A stretch of DNA of 34,776 nucleotides from the IMG/VR virus record IMGVR_UViG_3300028991_000022, one strand, 5' to 3'. The notes under the pieces are model-generated. The model did no database searches. It worked only from the letters and a program-made list of their open reading frames with translations, and was not told where the DNA came from. This DNA comes from a virus (Duplodnaviria; Heunggongvirae; Uroviricota; Caudoviricetes). The position numbers and the translations under genes were made by a program. Below are positions 2,336-32,309 of this stretch, piece after piece. The stretch's first letter is position 1, and each line of letters opens with the position of its first letter.

Positions 2336-5300
2336 TATGCAAGCCTCACAATATAGTTAAATGCGATGTTTTTGACGGTGTTTTCCGCGTTACCAGCAGC
2401 GTTAACGGTGATGGTGTGTCCATGTGAACCAATCGCAACGGAGTGCGTATGAGCACCAATACCGACAGTATGCGCGTGTGCACCTGCAGATGCTGCTGTG
2501 CCGGACAGTGAATGGCTATGATTACCATCTGTACTGGTATTCGCTAACCACCCCGTAGACATACCTACTGAGCCTTGTACACCCCAGGTATTTTGACCTG
2601 AGCTTGTATAACCATATTGATAAGTATCTTTAAAAACACTGGGGTTAAATCGACGGCCATCTCTATGGCTGTGATTACCAGCTGCATTCGTGCTGCCACT
2701 TAAACTATGGGTATGCGCACCAGTGTTATTCGTGGATTTAGTGCCGTAATCAAACGACGATGTGGTTTTCGTCCCCAAATCCGTACTGGATGCGCTGGCG
2801 CTGTGGGTATGCGATTTAATGCCATCCTGTTCCTGAGACAATACGGCACGACCACTGGCGGGCTTGCCCTTAATCGTCCAGCCACGCAAATCAGGGATCA
2901 CGCCTGACGGATAAGCGGCAGCAAGTTTCGGGTAGGCAGATTTGTCAAAAGTCTGCCCCTGCATCAGGGCATAACCAGACGGAACGGTATCTGATGGCCA
3001 CGGGATTGGTGCGCCGACTGGGTAGCTTTCTGGTGGAAGATTTTTCGAGGTATAAACTTCTGCCCAGTCTTCCTCAAAACCATAGCCATCTCTTGAAGAA
3101 CGGTAGAACAGACCACCATTTCTGTAATGCGCCTTCATCTGCAGGGTCCGGCAACTTCCGACTCCGGTATAGAAGTTAACCAGAATATAGCTGTCGCCAG
3201 AGCGGGTGACATTGTAAGCGCCTGATTCGGCATTCCAGGGAACGCCACCATCCGCATCGGCATATGTATCCGTTGCCCTTCTGGCAAAAGCAGCCACATG
3301 CGCGGCGGTTAAAGTAATATCTTTGGAACCATCAAACTCAACACCAGAAACCAGTCTTGGCGTTTGCAGCTTTGTTGCTGTTAATGCATTACCGTTCAGA
3401 CTTGCGGACAGTTTGGTTCCAATAACCAGTTCGCCGGTTGCGTTATCAATAGCAAACGGTCTTAATGTATTCCAGCCACCATAAACATCACCTTGATTGG
3501 TAAGCAGCAGGTAAGTTTTAGCGCCATCATTACGCCATAATGCCCCATACTCCCCACCTATCATTCGAATCTGATTACCACCACGCGCTACAATTTCGTC
3601 TGTGGCAAAAAGTTTTTTGCACGACAAGTTATCGTTAACGATTAACGAATGAGACTCATAAAAACCACGCCCACTCTTAAAATCAAGGATAACGTCCGCC
3701 GCGATACATTCAGTCGCCGGATTTGTTGCCCCAAACTTATAGGTCGTATCATTAACAACGAGATCAGCACCAGGTGCGGATATTGACAGGCCATCTTCGA
3801 TAAACGCAAAAACAGGGAAAGCAGCGCCATCAACATAGAACACAGAGCGCAAATCATCGCCCTTATTACTCATCATTATTGAGTGGATGGCTCGTTCATT
3901 GTTTTGATATTGCCAGAACATTCCATAAGCATAACGCCCCCTGTCAGTCCAGCCACCAGGCATAACAAATCCGTTAAACTCGCAGTTATTCATCGGATCG
4001 CCTGCGGTTCGCGTTGCCGTGGTGATAATGACCCTTGATGCCAGTTCGCTTACTGAGCCAGCAGAACGCATAACAACAACAGGGTAATATTTTCCAGATA
4101 TTGCACCTGCAGGAGCGTTAACCCGCACATAACGCATACCACGCTTATCAGCAAAGTCTGTTTTACTGACCGCGTTAATGTTGTTCAGGAAGCGTCCCTT
4201 ATCGGGTATATCAGCGCCGTTCTGGTCTTTCTGCAGACGTTTCTCTGCATTGTCATAGGCTGATTTTACTGCCTTTGGCGTTGCCGCCAGCGTTTCAGAC
4301 GAACTGTTGGTCGCACTGCTGAGCTGTACTATCCCCTTTTTCGTCGTACTTGCATCCTCAAGCGCCACGGCGGATGCAATATCCTCTGCCCGTTTAGCTG
4401 CTGTCTCGGCGCGCGTTGCTGCGGATTCTGCCGTATTCTTGCTCTGTGCTGCCGCCGTCGCACTGCCAGCAGCCTCTGTTGCCTTCGTGGATGCCGTCGT
4501 GGCGCTGCCTTTCGCTGCTGATGCCTGTCTGGTCGCCTCATCTTTTGAAGCAGACGCCGATGAGGCCGATGACGCCGCCGAACTGGCGGACGATGCGGCA
4601 GCCGTTTTTGAGGATTCTGCGCTGGTTTCCGACGCTTTCGCGTTCGTTTCGGATGTCTTCGCTGCGGAAGCTGACCTCGCTGCTGCGTTGGCCTGTTCAG
4701 TGGCTTCGCCAGCCTTCGTTGTGGCTGTTGAAGCAGACGATGCGGCACTTTCTGCCGATTTTCCGGCGGCGGTGGCACTGGCTGAGGCCTGCCCGGCACT
4801 TGTTGACGCGGTACTGGCAGACGACGCAGCCGCTGTTTTTGAGCCTGCCGCAGCTGAGGCGCTCTGTCCCGCTGCCGTCTCAGAAGACCTGGCGTTCGCC
4901 TCGGACGTTTTTGCCGCCTTCGCGGAATTTCCTGCCGCCGTTGCCGAGGAAGCGGCACTACTGGCGCTCGAGGATGCGTTCGTTTCTGATGATTTCGCTG
5001 CCTCTTTTGAGGCCGCCGCATCCCGGGCTGAGGTGGCAGCTTCTGACGCTTTCGTGGTCGCGGTGGATGCAGAAGTGGCTGCTGATTGTTGTGACGCTGC
5101 GGCATTCGTTTCTGACGTTTTCGCCGCACCGGCACTGGTAGCCGCCGCGCTTTTTGAGGACTCTGCTGCGGCAGCACTTTTTGATGCTTCAGTAGCCTTT
5201 GTTGATGCCGTTCCTGCGCTGGAAGACGCTGACTGAGCCGACGTCGCGGCCTGCCCGGCTGATGTGCTGGCTGCACGTGCTGAGCCTGCAGCATCAGTCG

Positions 5301-28861: not shown

Positions 28862-28964
28862 AGCCTCACCTCCGCACGGAACGGATGGCATAGTTATTAT
28901 GTGTAGGCTTCCAGACACATCAATCAGAGCCTTAATTGATATATATGCTGGAGACGATGCAATA

Positions 28965-28987
28965 TAAAAAGCTCGCCGTAGCGAGCT
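28965..28987 (-). terminator. Rho-independent terminator between the TolA-like lipoprotein genes and the holin gene
   Basis: Minus strand reads AGCTCGC-TACG-GCGAGCT followed by TTTTTATATTG; 7-bp perfect stem. Confidence 0.6.
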
Positions 28988-29112: not shown

Positions 29113-29508
29113 CTAACCTCGCATGTCAAAGCCAGATTTCTGAAAATCTCTGTAGACTTCCGGATTGTTGAAGGCCGGAAATTTGGCTTTATGAGCTGCG
29201 GACTTTATCGCTTCGCAATAGGCTTTATCACCGTTACTGGTAGATATTTTTAACGCCGTGCCATCCTGAGAGAATTCCATATGCAACCTGCATTTTTTCC
29301 CTTTCCAGTTATGCGGCTCATCAAGTTTGGCATTAATTGCAGCTCTGATTCCCCGCGCTTGCGCCCCCCATTCATCCTGATCATCCCAGCGTCCTGAACT
29401 GCAACTACCTGTAGCAGTAGTTTTGTGGCAATCTGAAGGGTGTAAAGGTGTGCATCCCGCAACAAAACCGACCCAAAAAGTCAACATAACGATTTTCTTT
29501 AATCCCAC
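29113..29508 (-). CDS. Lipoprotein with diverged TolA C-terminal domain (TolAIII)-like fold, copy A
   Basis: 131-aa ORF with signal peptide plus lipobox (MGLKKIVMLTFWVGFVAGC, +2 residue Thr). C-terminal KGKKCRLHMEFSQDGTALKISTSNGDKAYCEAIKSAAHKAKFPAFNNPEVYRDFQ parallels the second copy and TolA domain III (two conserved Cys, PxxxxEVY). Confidence 0.65.
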   Translation of the reverse strand: MGLKKIVMLTFWVGFVAGCTPLHPSDCHKTTATGSCSSGRWDDQDEWGAQARGIRAAINAKLDEPHNWKGKKCRLHMEFSQDGTALKISTSNGDKAYCEAIKSAAHKAKFPAFNNPEVYRDFQKSGFDMRG

Positions 29509-29658: not shown

Positions 29659-30087
29659 TCAGGGTTTAAAATCCAGCACCCCATTTTGAAATACTTTATA
29701 TACTTCCGGCGAAGGGGGGGCAGGTATATCAGCATTCTTTATCGCATTCATCGCTTCACGACATAAATCGAGGTCTCCACTTTCTCTTTTAACCTCCAGT
29801 AGAAGGCCATTCGGGGCCATATGCATTCTCAGTGTACACTCTTTTCCTGAATACTTACTCGCATCCCCGAACTGTTTTTCGATGGCGCTCTTGATTTGAT
29901 GGGCATACAGACGGATATCCTCACTAACATCAGAAGTACGTTCAGATGAACTCACATACTGTGTCTCTATTGCTTTATCGGAGTAATATGATGTACGGTC
30001 ATGATAATTTGTCGATACAGCATCAGTGCACCCGATAATAATCCCACTAATAATCAACGTAAGAATTGATGCGCTACGAAAACCCAT
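29659..30087 (-). CDS. Lipoprotein with TolA C-terminal domain (TolAIII)-like domain, copy B
   Basis: 142-aa ORF with lipobox (MGFRSASILTLIISGIIIGC, +2 Thr). C-terminus YAHQIKSAIEKQFGDASKYSGKECTLRMHMAPNGLLLEVKRESGDLDLCREAMNAIKNADIPAPPSPEVYKVFQNGVLDFKP closely parallels the E. coli TolA C-terminus as I recall it (YAGQIKSAIESKFYDASSYAGKTCTLRIKLAPDGMLLDIKPEGGDPALCQAALAAAKLAKIPKPPSQAVYEVFKNAPLDFKP). Confidence 0.8.
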   Translation of the reverse strand: MGFRSASILTLIISGIIIGCTDAVSTNYHDRTSYYSDKAIETQYVSSSERTSDVSEDIRLYAHQIKSAIEKQFGDASKYSGKECTLRMHMAPNGLLLEVKRESGDLDLCREAMNAIKNADIPAPPSPEVYKVFQNGVLDFKP

Positions 30088-30620
30088 TTTTCCTCACATA
30101 TGTCATATAGTAAAGAATTATATATACCGTTGTTTTGGACGCTCAAACAGCGAATCAGATCAAATAAAACGCACATTTGTTAACATTTACACAAAGTCTG
30201 CGTGGGATATTCTGAAAGAATATCCATAATGTGGAGAGAATCTATTGAAGTGCATGGTGCCGGGTGCCTCCCGGTGAATTCAGTACCAGCACCTGAATCC
30301 GCGATTATCCCATATACCTACTCGCTGATTGCCCCTCCGCACAGGGGGATTCACCATGCCAGTTTCTTTTAACAAACTCCCCGCAAACCAGAGAACAGTC
30401 AACCGCCTGAATTGTGAAGTATTTAAAAATTTCTCCCGCTAACTGATACCCGGCTAACAGTCTGGCGTTTTCTTTTTCAGCAACGGGAAAGCAACAACCA
30501 CCACACCCGCCACCAGCACACTGTCAGCCAGCACTGACATTATCCGGCTGCTGCAATGCCATTCACAAAAACAGTAAGCAATCACTTTTTACCGTAACAG
30601 GTGATAATCCAGATATGTAT

Positions 30621-30974
30621 CTACCCCAGATGAGTAATCCGAAGTTCATCCATACCACAGGTCCTGGCTATTCTGTTGTACTCCTGAACAAGAGCAAATA
30701 ATTCTGAATTAGCAACCATGAACTCATCGCAAACCCTCTGTATAGCATCACTATTCAGAATAATAACGTCTCTTCCCGAAAGACGATCAGGAGCACAGAA
30801 CAAAACTGTCAAACGGCTGAAGGCCTTTGCTCGTGCTGCATTGACTATATCAATACGCTGCCTAAGGATGAAACACCCCGACGCCTCATCAATATTCACT
30901 CTACCCACACCATATGAATGATAAATATTTAATGCTGAAAAAACCATTAGACCGTATAACAAACACTCAATCAA
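30621..30974 (-). CDS. Hypothetical protein (117 aa), first gene of the moron locus downstream of the tRNAs
   Basis: ORF MIECLLYGLMVFSALNIYHSYGVGRVNIDEASGCFILRQ...; hydrophobic N-terminus; no recognised motif. Start uncertain. Confidence 0.45.
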   Translation of the reverse strand: MIECLLYGLMVFSALNIYHSYGVGRVNIDEASGCFILRQRIDIVNAARAKAFSRLTVLFCAPDRLSGRDVIILNSDAIQRVCDEFMVANSELFALVQEYNRIARTCGMDELRITHLG

Positions 30975-31084
30975 TACTTAACAGAACTTTTATTTTTGAC
31001 AAACATATTATGTTTTCAACAATATCCTGAGCCAGGTATATTCCAGTATAAGGCTCTGCCGGAAGGAATCTGGAAGAATGAATA

Positions 31085-31161: not shown

Positions 31162-31229
31162 TGAATACCGATAATGGACCGCCATCGGGGACCCGCCCCC
31201 GCACCAACAACCCTGTTATCGTGTCGTCT

Positions 31230-31270
31230 NNNNNNNNNNNNNNNNNNNNNNNNNNNNNNNNNNNNNNNNN
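31230..31270. other. Assembly gap (41 N)
   Basis: Run of n characters; removes the 3' CCA end of the adjacent tRNA and may hide a further tRNA. Confidence 0.95.
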
Positions 31271-31344
31271 GTGGCCCTTGCTGGATTTGAACCAGCGACC
31301 TGGCGATTATGAGTCGCTCGCTCTCACCACTGAGCTAAAGGGCC
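31271..31344 (-). tRNA. tRNA-Ile2-like (anticodon CAU, lysidine-type) or tRNA-Met; 3' end truncated by the gap
   Basis: Minus strand GGCCCTTTAGCTCAGTGGTGAGAGCGAGCGACTCATAATCGCCAGGTCGCTGGTTCAAATCCAGCAAGGGCCAC; anticodon loop CTCATAA; closely resembles E. coli ileX-type tRNA as recalled. Confidence 0.85.
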
Positions 31345-31383
31345 GGGAGCAGAATAATAACGGTCCGTAATTAATTCCGCAAT

Positions 31384-31412
31384 AAAAAACCCGCTCGGCG
31401 GCGGGTTGTAGA
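31384..31412 (-). terminator. tR'-like rho-independent terminator downstream of the late promoter
   Basis: Minus strand reads AACCCGC-CGCCGA-GCGGGTT followed by TTTTATT; about 45-60 nt downstream of the predicted pR' start site. Confidence 0.7.
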
Positions 31413-31454
31413 AACTCTTCTAACGTCAGGCATAAAAAGCCCATCATTATGACG

Positions 31455-31482
31455 AATTTACCACAGATTCCGGAAAAATCAA
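31455..31482 (-). promoter_or_regulatory. pR'-like late promoter (with presumed Q-utilisation site)
   Basis: Minus strand reads TTGATT-(16 nt)-TAAATT immediately downstream of the Q stop codon; compare lambda pR' TTGACT-(17)-TAAATT as recalled. Confidence 0.7.
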
Positions 31483-31487
31483 CCTTG

Positions 31488-32309
31488 TTACCTAGTTACC
31501 TTTTTTAACTGCCGCTCAGCCCATGCTTCTTCAATATCAAACCGGGTCACCAGCGCATCATAGAATTTCTTAACTGTTTTTTCCCATGACGCGCGTGTTA
31601 TCTGGTTTGTCACCTCGCATATAGCATTAAATGCCTCCGTTGATGGTAGTCTTTCATAGCCACGACCACCACAACGCTGGCAGTCTCTGATAACAGGCAT
31701 ACCACGTTTTACCGACTCTTCACGGTGAATGGCGACACCACGCCCACGGCAATCCTTACAGGCGGTGGAAACCTCACCCTTTCCGCCACACTCCGGACAG
31801 GCAACTTTTACCACCTCCCTGACTTTTTTCCATTCTTCCCAGTAAGACGGATACACACCTTTCGTACACTTTGCCCATACCGGCGGCTTACCATCCGGAT
31901 ACTGGACCTTGTTTGTAAAAACTATGCTTTCAATAAATTTTTCCCCATAGCAACAAGGGCACTGCTTTTTACTCGCTGCGCTGCGGGCATAATCCTCAAA
32001 AGCGTACGAAGCCATAATGCGCATCACTACCGGTTTTATTTCTGCCGGAAGTTTTCTCAACGCCGCCACACGATCGCACCGACTGAGTGCATAATCTGCC
32101 AGTAATTCTGTTGCCCGCGCCCTGTCATTCATACTGATGCCCATTTTCCCCAGGAACGCAGAAAAACCCATCTCAGCCCGATTCTGTGTCATGCCCTGCG
32201 CGGCCATCACATCAGTGATACTCAGCGCATCTTTTGACGTTGAGGCCGATGCATCGGTCAGGCCAGGGGATTTTGGGGAGTAGTATTTCGGTAAATCTTC
32301 CAGTTTCAT
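31488..32309 (-). CDS. Q: Late gene antiterminator Q
   Basis: 273-aa ORF directly upstream of the pR'-like promoter; Cys-rich repeats CPECGGKG, CKDCRGRG and CQRCGGRG (CxxCxGxG zinc-finger type) plus CPCC; preceded by rusA as in lambdoid nin/Q regions. Confidence 0.85.
   Translation of the reverse strand: MKLEDLPKYYSPKSPGLTDASASTSKDALSITDVMAAQGMTQNRAEMGFSAFLGKMGISMNDRARATELLADYALSRCDRVAALRKLPAEIKPVVMRIMASYAFEDYARSAASKKQCPCCYGEKFIESIVFTNKVQYPDGKPPVWAKCTKGVYPSYWEEWKKVREVVKVACPECGGKGEVSTACKDCRGRGVAIHREESVKRGMPVIRDCQRCGGRGYERLPSTEAFNAICEVTNQITRASWEKTVKKFYDALVTRFDIEEAWAERQLKKVTR

What the first reader, a model, noticed from the sequence alone, without database searches (positions are those of the whole stretch)
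30088..30974. Uncharacterised 117-aa ORF and a 530-bp spacer opening the moron locus
Immediately downstream of the tRNAs lies a 117-aa ORF with a hydrophobic N-terminus and no recognisable motif, then about 530 bp with no long ORF before the TolA-like genes. The spacer may carry an autonomous moron promoter, so the TolA-like pair could be expressed in the lysogen independently of Q antitermination.
Basis: partly seen in the sequence, partly recalled or inferred. Interest (0 to 1): 0.55.

Follow-up and report, generated by a model that had tools for sequence, protein, structure and literature searches.

The report
Small gene, sRNA, TolA moron leader
The "117-aa ORF plus empty spacer" is really a packed stretch of a lambda-like prophage's late operon: a real but shorter (92-aa) protein gene of unknown function, a damaged small membrane-protein gene, a known prophage small RNA (STnc100) and the promoter-like leader of a TolA-like lipoprotein cassette. 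It is ordinary prophage mosaicism.

Summary
Everything lies on the minus strand, downstream of Q, tR' and the late tRNAs.

**The ORF.** It exists, but the conserved protein starts at GTG 30899 and ends at the stop at 30621, giving 92 aa. Codons 26-117 are under purifying selection (dN/dS 0.27). The "hydrophobic N-terminus", codons 1-25, is not (0.81). Homologues are 91-95 aa, and one has an in-frame stop and an AGGAG ribosome-binding site just upstream. The model is a confident helical hairpin with no informative fold or family match (phrog_2873, function unknown).

**The "spacer".** It is not empty. It holds:
- a terB 3' remnant and a 5'-damaged DUF3927 gene (30454-30585);
- an STnc100 sRNA (Rfam RF02076, 114 bits, 30198-30388). 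Relatives of this sRNA are expressed in uninduced lysogens;
- from 30250, the leader of a TolA-like lipoprotein cassette.

**The TolA cassette.** Homology with other prophages stops at 30251, inside the sRNA, so its canonical terminator is replaced by the TolA leader. The cassette has a TTGAGC-18-TATAAT promoter-like site (30146-30117), a Shine-Dalgarno sequence and its own terminator (28987-28961).

**Verdict.** This is a known kind of locus and of low interest.

The parts
30621..30899 (-). 92-aa protein gene (GTG start, TAG stop). It belongs to an unnamed small-protein family (phrog_2873) with a predicted helix / beta-hairpin / helix hairpin fold.
   Evidence: dN/dS against the 55%-identical homologue in L002 is 0.27, with third-position bias 25/23/43; shifted-frame controls give about 1. 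Homologues of 91-95 aa start at this position. PGAP annotates the homologue in TK3896 from exactly this position, where it is preceded by AGGAG and an in-frame TGA. The exact 92-aa sequence is deposited in GenBank as a hypothetical protein. AlphaFold2 pLDDT is 88.8.
30900..30974 (-). The 25 upstream in-frame codons of the 117-aa ORF (TTG 30974, ATG 30947). Most likely a 5' untranslated leader, not protein.
   Evidence: dN/dS is 0.81 and differences by codon position are flat at 11/10/12. This stretch is absent from distant homologues. An in-frame stop occupies it in L096. The ATG at codon 10 is not conserved in L002.
30975..31084 (-). AT-rich region between tRNA-Arg and the ORF. It holds a weak promoter-like site, TTGAAA-16-AAAAAT (31019-30992), and a 7+7 palindrome, AAACATAATATGTTT (31015-31001).
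   Evidence: The region is conserved only among near-identical loci, so its function is untested.
30587..30612 (-). Remnant of the 3' end of a terB gene plus the ancestral DUF3927 start codon, mutated from GTG to GTT (30598-30596).
   Evidence: Alignment with the EDL933 terB-DUF3927 junction. The intact arrangement ORF95-TerB-DUF3927 is seen in a Citrobacter prophage, L087.
30454..30585 (-). DUF3927 small hydrophobic protein ORF (43 aa, GTG start; internal ATG at 30540). It is damaged at the 5' end relative to the family.
   Evidence: Pfam PF13064 6.2e-26; phrog_1470; annotated by PGAP. Only the C-terminal ~29 residues align with intact 50-55-aa members. Deletions of 15 nt and 5 nt remove the first hydrophobic segment.
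30198..30388 (-). STnc100-family sRNA (Rfam RF02076). The body is intact, but the canonical 3' linker and terminator are replaced from 30250 onward.
   Evidence: 114 bits, E 2e-25, full model. The sister allele with an intact terminator scores 132 bits. The closing stem GCAUGGUG/CACCAUGC and three internal hairpins fold as in the model.
30366..30430 (-). Conserved sequence upstream of the STnc100 body: TTAAAT (30426-30421), TCACAATTCAG, GTTGAC, and TGTTAAAAG (30374-30366), which looks like an extended -10, with TTCTCT at 30395-30390 in the -35 position. Candidate sRNA promoter(s).
   Evidence: These blocks are conserved in nine diverse copies that have unrelated upstream neighbours. Backbone homology with phage PhiR49_2 starts at about 30429. 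No transcription start is mapped here.
30250..30251 (-). Mosaic junction: ...CACCATGCA | CTTCAATAG... Upstream of it is the module shared with many prophages; downstream is the TolA cassette.
   Evidence: BLAST homology with L024, L021, L005, L038 and L040 ends at 30251-30253. Downstream sequences fall into two classes. The same junction follows a different STnc100 allele in MS6192.
30088..30249 (-). Leader of the TolA cassette. It contains an AU-rich hairpin (30225-30205) with no U-tail, a weak hairpin plus UUUUAUUU (30203-30162), the promoter-like TTGAGC-18-TATAAT (30146-30117) and the SD GAGGA (30095-30091).
   Evidence: Hairpin -9.5 kcal/mol, z -5.5. Second hairpin -8.8 kcal/mol, z -0.9, not significant.
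29659..30087 (-). TolA C-terminal-domain lipoprotein 1 (142 aa; lipobox IIGC).
   Evidence: Pfam PF06519 2.4e-23; PGAP names it 'tolA'; the lipobox is read from the translation.
29113..29508 (-). TolA C-terminal-domain lipoprotein 2 (lipobox VAGC).
   Evidence: Pfam PF06519 1.3e-14; PGAP annotates a CDS here.
28961..28987 (-). Intrinsic terminator closing the TolA cassette: AGCTCGC-tacg-GCGAGCT followed by TTTTATATT.
   Evidence: Read from the sequence. A near-identical terminator follows the ORF92 homologue in L096.
31380..31487 (-). Region of the late promoter PR' (candidate TTGATT-16-TAAATT, 31482-31455) and the tR' terminator (31407-31388 plus a T-run).
   Evidence: Terminator found; sequence. 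Q lies at 31488-32309 (Pfam PF03589 6e-55). 933W has the same layout.

Best explanation
Shown: the interval is a mosaic piece of the late operon of a lambdoid prophage, read on the minus strand. The order is Q, PR'/tR', tRNA(CAT), a decayed tRNA-Arg, tRNA-Arg(tct), then two cargo slots separated by a backbone sRNA gene.

Slot 1 is where stxAB sits in Stx phages. Here it holds a real 92-aa cytoplasmic helical-hairpin protein gene (30899-30621). It also holds what is left of a terB-DUF3927 pair: terB is deleted, and DUF3927 has lost its 5' end.

Next comes an STnc100-family sRNA gene with conserved promoter-like sequence upstream.

Recombination inside the conserved 3' core of the sRNA (junction 30251/30250) has joined it to slot 2. 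Slot 2 is a self-contained cassette: promoter-like site, Shine-Dalgarno sequence, two TolA-C-terminal-domain lipoprotein genes and an intrinsic terminator.

Inferred expression:
- After induction, Q-modified polymerase from PR' reads through everything into the lysis genes.
- In the lysogen, the sRNA promoter and/or the TTGAGC-18-TATAAT site can transcribe the TolA pair without Q.
- This STnc100 allele has lost its strong terminator, so its transcripts probably run on into tolA.

Inferred functions:
- The 92-aa protein probably acts by protein-protein binding through its coiled-coil hairpin. Its target is unknown.
- The TolA-like lipoproteins probably act as periplasmic TolA-domain-III decoys.
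For: Anatomy.

Coding status and true start of the ORF:
- dN/dS is 0.27 for codons 26-117, 0.81 for codons 1-25 and about 1 in shifted frames.
- Nineteen representatives at 50% clustering were found, with full-length members of 91-95 aa.
- PGAP starts the homologue at this position, with AGGAG and an upstream in-frame stop.
- The 92-aa protein is already in GenBank.

Fold: pLDDT 88.8, helix 3-34, beta-hairpin 40-45, helix 50-81.

Slot model:
- 933W has tRNAs, stx2AB, then STnc100 46 nt after stx2B, then the esterase and holin.
- PhiR49_2 has the tRNAs directly followed by STnc100 and then holin.
- Citrobacter has ORF95-TerB-DUF3927-holin.
- EDL933 has TerB-DUF3927-STnc100-esterase.

Other points:
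- terB remnant and damaged DUF3927.
- Junction at 30251 and the alternative canonical terminator AGCCCCTCTCCGGAGGGGCTGTTTATATT.
- Same junction behind a different sRNA allele.
- Promoter-like site, Shine-Dalgarno sequence and terminator of the TolA cassette.
- STnc100 copies are transcribed in uninduced EDL933 and one was confirmed by Northern blot (PMC5331693).
- An Hfq-binding sRNA, EcOnc27, overlaps STnc100 downstream of stx2B (PMC12711010).
- RpoD binds at STnc100 promoters in Salmonella LT2 (PMC10794520).
Against: - No transcription data exist for this locus, so every promoter here is only a consensus match. The scan found 10 promoter-like sites where shuffled sequence gives 5.5 +/- 2.2.
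- All TolA-bearing copies are about 99% identical, so conservation of the promoter-like site says nothing.
- In this allele the -35 position of the candidate sRNA promoter reads TTCTCT, where other copies have TTGCCT or TTGTCT.
- The SD before GTG 30899 is weak (GGGTAGA).
- RefSeq PGAP and RAST leave the ORF unannotated.
- Fold searches return only generic antiparallel coiled coils, so the proposed protein-binding role is a guess.
- The DUF3927 remnant may be a dead gene.
Confidence: 0.72

Rival explanations
1. A 117-aa (or 108-aa) protein with a hydrophobic, membrane-targeting N-terminus is made from TTG 30974 or ATG 30947. It is followed by a truly non-coding spacer whose only role is to carry a moron promoter.
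For: The long frame is open in all 83 close copies. phrog_2873 is a 108-aa profile that matches residues 10-117. Several gene callers predict 108-118-aa products.
Against: Codons 1-25 show no purifying selection. M10 is Asn in the 55%-identical homologue. More distant homologues lack the extension, and one has an in-frame stop there. The 'spacer' holds a Pfam-significant ORF and an sRNA above the Rfam gathering score.
Confidence: 0.08
2. The ORF is a chance open frame in non-coding DNA, as its omission from the RefSeq (PGAP) and RAST annotations implies.
For: PGAP leaves it unannotated: none of the 27 close matches listed has an annotated feature (1236 genomes carry a near-full-length copy), nor does GB089. 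RAST omits it in phage mEp460_ev081. It has no Pfam or NCBIfam hit and a weak SD.
Against: dN/dS is 0.27 with third-position bias, and shifted-frame controls are neutral. Homologues down to 34% identity in E. coli, Shigella, Citrobacter and Salmonella keep the length and the motifs R23, P37, D38, N64, Y74 and N75. The alignment gives a confident structure model.
Confidence: 0.04
3. The interval is decayed cargo with no autonomous expression. The DUF3927 remnant and the terminator-less STnc100 allele are relics. The TolA pair and the 92-aa gene are transcribed only as part of the Q-dependent late operon.
For: There are clear signs of decay: the terB deletion, the GTG-to-GTT change and frame damage in DUF3927, loss of the sRNA terminator, a degenerate middle tRNA and a weakened -35. 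The promoter-like hits are not statistically exceptional.
Against: The 92-aa gene is under purifying selection. The arrangement is kept at 97-100% identity in over a thousand genomes. The TolA cassette has a perfect TATAAT, an SD and its own terminator. Family members of the sRNA are expressed without induction.
Confidence: 0.2

Closest known systems
Stx-phage late-region layout (933W: Q, PR'/tR', ileX-argN-argO tRNAs, stx2AB, STnc100/EcOnc27, nanS-p esterase, holin)
   Same: The backbone order is the same: Q, terminator, tRNA(CAT) and tRNA-Arg, a cargo slot, an STnc100 sRNA, a second cargo slot, then holin and lysozyme.
   Different: Slot 1 carries the 92-aa gene and a terB/DUF3927 remnant in place of stx2AB. 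Slot 2 carries two TolA-like lipoprotein genes in place of the sialate esterase. The middle tRNA is degenerate. The Q protein is of a different type (273 aa with a DnaJ-like zinc-finger match).
STnc100 / PasD / EcOnc27 family of prophage Hfq-associated sRNAs (Rfam RF02076)
   Same: The full-length covariance-model match (114 bits) includes the multibranch body, the conserved upstream blocks and the position between Q and holin (bioRxiv 10.64898/2026.05.13.724894).
   Different: The canonical GC-rich terminator with its U-tail is replaced by an AU-rich hairpin without a U-tail, which is fused to the tolA leader. The score is 18 bits below the sister allele. Hfq binding and the 3' end are therefore uncertain for this copy.
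Phage morons (promoter, gene, terminator cassettes inserted in late operons; PMC3594210, listed but not read)
   Same: The TolA cassette has a promoter-like site, an SD, two genes and an intrinsic terminator. It sits between backbone elements and occurs at another position in another prophage.
   Different: Autonomous transcription is not shown. The left boundary lies inside an sRNA gene rather than in an intergenic region.
phrog_2873 / phrog_4827 (PHROG families of unknown function)
   Same: The ORF matches phrog_2873 at 2e-69 over residues 10-117 and phrog_4827 at 4e-5.
   Different: The PHROG profile carries a 16-residue N-terminal extension that the comparative data argue is not translated.
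Small helical-hairpin binding proteins (prefoldin beta; TraM anti-activator)
   Different: There is no significant E-value and no sequence similarity. Hundreds of unrelated coiled coils score equally well, so this is only a resemblance in shape.

Membership tests
STnc100 (Rfam RF02076) | Covariance-model score above the family gathering threshold (47 bits) over the full model | tested here: met
   114 bits, model positions 1-206 of 206, E 2e-25.
STnc100 (Rfam RF02076) | Rho-independent terminator (GC stem plus U-tail) at the 3' end, as in the consensus and as expected for an Hfq-dependent sRNA | tested here: not met
   The window has GGAUAUUCUUUCAGAAUAUCC followed by CACGCAG. The sister allele has AGCCCCUCUCCGGAGGGGCU followed by GUUUAUAUU.
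STnc100 (Rfam RF02076) | Expressed as a discrete, Hfq-bound small RNA | not testable with these tools
   Only literature on other copies is available.
DUF3927 (Pfam PF13064) | Score above the Pfam gathering threshold | tested here: met
   90.6 bits against a threshold of 25, E 6e-26.
DUF3927 (Pfam PF13064) | Full-length two-segment hydrophobic peptide of 50-67 aa | tested here: not met
   The ORF is 43 aa. The N-terminal hydrophobic segment is lost through deletions, and the ancestral start codon is mutated.
TolA C-terminal domain (Pfam PF06519) | Score above the gathering threshold for both downstream genes | tested here: met
   82.6 and 54.6 bits against a threshold of 25.
Full-length TolA (NCBIfam NF007065 / TIGR02794) | The equivalog cut-off, implying an N-terminal membrane anchor, the long helical domain II and domain III | tested here: not met
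   107.8 bits against a cut-off of 213 (NF007065). Only profile positions 293-386 are matched, and the proteins are 142 and 131 aa with lipoboxes. The PGAP name 'cell envelope integrity protein TolA' over-calls them.
Phage moron | Own promoter and terminator flanking the cargo, within a larger operon | tested here: inconclusive
   A promoter-like consensus and a clear terminator are present. Promoter activity is untested.
Phage moron | Presence/absence polymorphism between otherwise homologous phages | tested here: met
   Of the 85 loci compared, 26 carry the tolA leader and tolA1 after STnc100, and 24 of these show the whole cassette. PhiR49_2 has no cargo in either slot.
phrog_2873 | Significant profile match | tested here: met
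   E 2.2e-69, 231 bits.
Anti-phage defence systems (PADLOC) | A match to any defence-protein model | tested here: not met
   No hits for the four proteins.

The most novel reading that the evidence does not exclude
Two readings are not excluded.

(a) The 92-aa helical-hairpin protein is a new class of prophage-borne small modulator that acts by binding a regulator. In one lineage its homologue sits 21 bp downstream of an AraC-type regulator gene (L002, L093). That echoes small anti-activators such as TraM or the AraC-negative regulators.

(b) The terminator-less STnc100 allele has been co-opted as a structured 5' leader and promoter module. It would drive and regulate the TolA-decoy lipoproteins in the lysogen, forming an sRNA-to-mRNA-leader chimera created by recombination within the sRNA core.
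Probability: 0.12. Interest if true: 0.55.

Novelty: new member of a known kind. Interest (0 to 1): 0.3.

Why it matters
Practical points:
- About a quarter of complete E. coli genomes carry a small gene under purifying selection that current RefSeq annotation leaves out.
- The same annotation places a pseudo-CDS over an sRNA.
- It also names truncated domain-III lipoproteins "TolA".

Biological points:
- The locus shows that the conserved core of a prophage sRNA serves as a recombination joint between cargo slots.
- It shows that the slot which carries Shiga toxin genes in Stx phages holds other small genes in commensal and extraintestinal pathogenic E. coli (ExPEC) prophages.
- If the TolA-like lipoproteins are made in the lysogen, they could change sensitivity to Tol-dependent colicins and filamentous phages.

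None of this opens a long-standing question.

Tried and rejected
- **Family searches for the ORF.** Pfam, NCBIfam, PADLOC and PDB-sequence searches found nothing. The only hit was a sub-threshold RHIM match, which I dismissed.
- **Wider homologue scans.** One genome per GTDB species returned only the E. coli representative. The phage collection by tblastn returned one record. The family is therefore narrow.
- **Close alleles.** The 83 full-length copies of the ORF among the 85 loci held at that point fall into only 12 distinct DNA alleles, too few for a selection test. I used the 55%-identical homologue instead.
- **Literature.** Searches for TciB, 'TolA-like' with prophage, and DUF3927 gave nothing useful. 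HnrS (PMC13502914) is a different, 66-nt sRNA and I did not pursue it.
- **EDL933 Northern-positive copy.** I tried to match STnc100_4 to this allele by coordinates. The assemblies differ, so this could not be settled.
- **Conserved leader upstream of the ORF.** Only about 30-70 nt next to the start codon is shared, and only with the closer homologues.
- **TolA leader in L093.** It is unrelated to the window's leader, so the cassette boundary could not be confirmed from that locus.
- **Weak Rfam hits.** Trp_leader, STnc350 and others in the region were rejected as chance or terminator-driven.

Full report
**1. Context**

All relevant features lie on the minus strand. Reading 5' to 3' on that strand:
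- an antiterminator Q gene at 32309-31488 (Pfam PF03589, 6e-55);
- a candidate PR' and a strong intrinsic terminator at 31407-31388, the tR' position;
- tRNA(CAT) at 31344-31271 and tRNA-Arg(tct) at 31161-31085;
- the interval under study;
- two TolA-C-terminal-domain genes (30087-29659 and 29508-29113);
- then a P21-type holin, DUF1327, a lysozyme and Rz.

This is the late operon of a lambdoid prophage. The sequence is 100% identical to a prophage of E. coli GB089 and other strains.

**2. The ORF**

The 117-aa frame (TTG 30974 to TAG 30621) is real and is open in all 83 full-length copies among the loci fetched. It is a protein-coding gene, but a shorter one. Five lines of evidence agree.

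- An exhaustive HMMER search of 1.84 billion representatives found 19 relatives. The full-length ones are 91-95 aa and align from query residue about 17-24 of the 108-aa form, which is residue 26 of the 117-aa frame.
- I compared the window ORF with the 55%-identical homologue in L002. Codons 26-117 give pN 0.254 and pS 0.584, so dN/dS is 0.27, with differences of 25/23/43 by codon position. Codons 1-25 give dN/dS 0.81 and flat differences of 11/10/12. The two shifted frames give about 1.
- In strain TK3896, PGAP annotates the 62%-identical homologue as a 279-nt CDS that begins exactly opposite window position 30899. There the GTG is preceded by AGGAG, and an in-frame TGA lies 12 codons upstream.
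- The ATG at codon 10 is Asn in L002.
- The exact 92-aa product is already deposited in GenBank as 'hypothetical protein' (AIX63381.1 and others).

The 'hydrophobic N-terminus' is therefore most likely leader sequence. About 30-70 nt upstream of the GTG is conserved at the nucleotide level without codon periodicity.

**3. What the protein is**

No Pfam, NCBIfam, PADLOC or PDB-sequence match was found. It matches phrog_2873 (2e-69) and, weakly, phrog_4827. Both are of unknown function.

The family is confined to Enterobacteriaceae: E. coli, Shigella, the Citrobacter freundii complex and Salmonella Kottbus. Only the E. coli genome was hit among one genome per GTDB species.

Its genomic niche is constant. 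It sits between Q and the holin of lambdoid prophages (L087, L092, L096). In three of the distant homologue loci a tRNA gene lies upstream on the same strand, 580-670 nt away in two of them and about 2.2 kb away in L087. One branch lies on Rep3 plasmids, again downstream of a tRNA-Thr. In one lineage it sits 21 bp after an AraC-type regulator gene.

It occurs in 1314 of 5426 complete E. coli genomes. None of the 27 close matches listed in that search has an annotated feature.

My best guess is a cytoplasmic protein that works by coiled-coil protein-protein binding. This is inference only.

**4. The 'spacer' is not empty**

Reading on from the stop codon:

(a) 30612-30587 aligns with the last roughly 20 nt of a terB gene and the overlapping start of DUF3927, as found in EDL933. 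Here the ancestral GTG is GTT, and deletions of 15 nt and 5 nt follow. The intact order ORF95-TerB-DUF3927-holin survives in a Citrobacter prophage.

(b) The ORF at 30585-30454 (43 aa) still scores 6e-26 against Pfam DUF3927 and is annotated by PGAP. However, only its C-terminal ~29 residues align with intact 50-55-aa members. It may be a shortened peptide or a dead gene. In the L002 lineage the equivalent region is frameshifted.

(c) 30388-30198 matches Rfam STnc100 over the whole model at 114 bits, against a gathering score of 47. It folds into the expected closed multibranch body.

STnc100, PasD and EcOnc27 form a known family of prophage sRNAs located between Q and the lysis genes (bioRxiv 10.64898/2026.05.13.724894). 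Copies are transcribed in uninduced EDL933, and one was confirmed by Northern blot (PMC5331693). The copy downstream of stx2B overlaps an Hfq-binding sRNA (PMC12711010). RpoD binds at the Salmonella copies (PMC10794520).

Nine diverse copies with unrelated left neighbours share the blocks TGTTAAAT, TCACAATTCAG, GTTGAC, TTG(C/T)CTG and TTTGTTAAAA upstream of the body. TTG(C/T)CT, 17-18 nt and TG-n-TAAAA(A/G) looks like an extended -10 promoter. In the window its -35 reads TTCTCT. No transcription start is mapped here.

**5. The mosaic joint**

Homology between the window and prophages that lack the TolA genes runs unbroken from Q to 30251 and stops there. That point is immediately after the 3' strand of the sRNA closing stem (...CACCATGCA).

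In those prophages the sRNA continues into a canonical terminator, AGCCCCTCTCCGGAGGGGCT followed by GTTTATATT. In the window it continues into CTTCAATAG..., which carries an AU-rich hairpin (30225-30205; -9.5 kcal/mol) with no U-tail. A second, weak hairpin follows, ending in UUUUAUUU (30203-30162; z -0.9). The allele with the intact terminator scores 132 bits against 114 here.

The same joint follows a quite different STnc100 allele in a different prophage, MS6192. The conserved 3' core of the sRNA therefore acts as a recombination joint.

**6. Comparison with other phages: the slot model**

- 933W has tRNAs, stx2AB, STnc100 starting 46 nt after stx2B, the esterase and then holin.
- PhiR49_2 has three tRNAs followed directly by STnc100 and holin, with both slots empty.
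- The window has the 92-aa gene and terB/DUF3927 remnant in the stx slot, and the TolA pair in the esterase slot.

**7.

From 30250 to about 28961 the cassette contains:
- the best promoter-like match of the region, TTGAGC-18-TATAAT at 30146-30117 (10 of 12 positions);
- a GAGGA Shine-Dalgarno sequence 4 nt before the ATG at 30087;
- two genes whose products have lipoboxes (IIGC and VAGC) and only the TolA domain III. They fall below the NCBIfam equivalog cut-off NF007065 for full-length TolA;
- a clean intrinsic terminator at 28987-28961.

That is the textbook moron layout. The cassette is present in about a third of the related loci and absent from the rest. A TolA-like gene occupies another position in L093.

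Q-independent expression in the lysogen is therefore plausible. It could come from this site, from the sRNA promoter by read-through, or from both. But the scan's overall yield is only modestly above shuffles (10 against 5.5 +/- 2.2). All copies are about 99% identical. No expression data exist for the locus.

The decoy function is an inference from established knowledge of TolA domain III. That domain is the binding partner of group A colicins and of the Ff phage g3p protein. I state this from my own knowledge and did not test it here.

**8. Verdict**

The locus is an ordinary, if neatly dissectable, example of late-operon mosaicism in lambdoid prophages. It contains:
- one uncharacterised but real small protein family, already in PHROGs and GenBank as hypothetical;
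- one decayed small gene;
- one known sRNA family member with an altered 3' end;
- one moron.

Interest is low to moderate. The residual novelty lies in the unknown function of the 92-aa hairpin protein, and in whether the terminator-less sRNA now serves as a leader for the TolA-like genes.

Noticed in passing
window 31162-31271 (N-mask 31231-31271); L001 4075-4174: The masked stretch and its flank hide a degenerate middle tRNA-Arg(tcg)-like gene, the argN position of Stx phages. ARAGORN no longer recognises it. The identical GB089 sequence reads ccgccattagcttatcaggaagagcagacgacacgataacaggg...gatggcggtcca, against the intact argN of 933W.
   Followed up: partly
window about 30229-30369 (+): RefSeq PGAP places a partial pseudo 'hypothetical protein' CDS on the opposite strand, right over the STnc100 sRNA. 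The 92-aa gene next to it is left unannotated. The pseudo-CDS is probably an annotation artefact.
   Followed up: partly
L093 3575-6526 (E. coli O178:H19 2012C-4431): Five tandem STnc100 copies lie in one prophage late region, each preceded by the previous copy's terminator. A TolA-like gene sits directly after tRNA-Arg, and an AraC-type regulator gene is followed by the unannotated homologue of the 92-aa gene.
   Followed up: partly
window 28961-28987 (-); L096 2805-2827: The terminator after the second TolA-like gene (AGCTCGCtacgGCGAGCTTTTTAT) is almost identical to the terminator directly after the 92-aa homologue in strain TK3896 (AGCTCGCtactGCGAGCTTTTTT). This may be a shared backbone element ahead of the lysis genes rather than part of the TolA cassette.
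   Followed up: no
L089-L091 about 4347-5276: A 34%-identical homologue of the 92-aa protein lies on Rep3-type plasmids. It is about 580 nt downstream of a tRNA-Thr gene and next to a K88-like fimbrial operon with a PapB regulator. This looks like a phage-derived tRNA-plus-gene fragment on a plasmid.
   Followed up: no
window 29659-30087 and 29113-29508 (-): PGAP names the first gene 'cell envelope integrity protein TolA'. Both products are short lipoproteins (lipoboxes IIGC and VAGC) with only TolA domain III, and they score well below the full-length NF007065 equivalog cut-off.
   Followed up: partly
window 31001-31015 (-): A perfect 7+7 palindrome, AAACATAATATGTTT, sits between the hexamers of a weak promoter-like site (TTGAAA-16-AAAAAT) just upstream of the ORF. 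It could be an operator or chance in AT-rich DNA.
   Followed up: no
L094 about 4544-4558 (933W, downstream of stx2B): By my own count, the positions +90 and +103 after stx2B fall in or next to the conserved TTTGTTAAAA block and the few bases after it. PMC12711010 reports these positions as HUS-predictive variants. They would thus lie in the candidate -10 and start region of the STnc100-family sRNA.
   Followed up: partly
window 31488-32309 (-): The Q antiterminator is a 273-aa form with two Antiterm-domain stretches and a sub-threshold DnaJ-type CXXCXGXG zinc-finger match. It is preceded by RusA and DUF968 (ydfU-like) genes.
   Followed up: no
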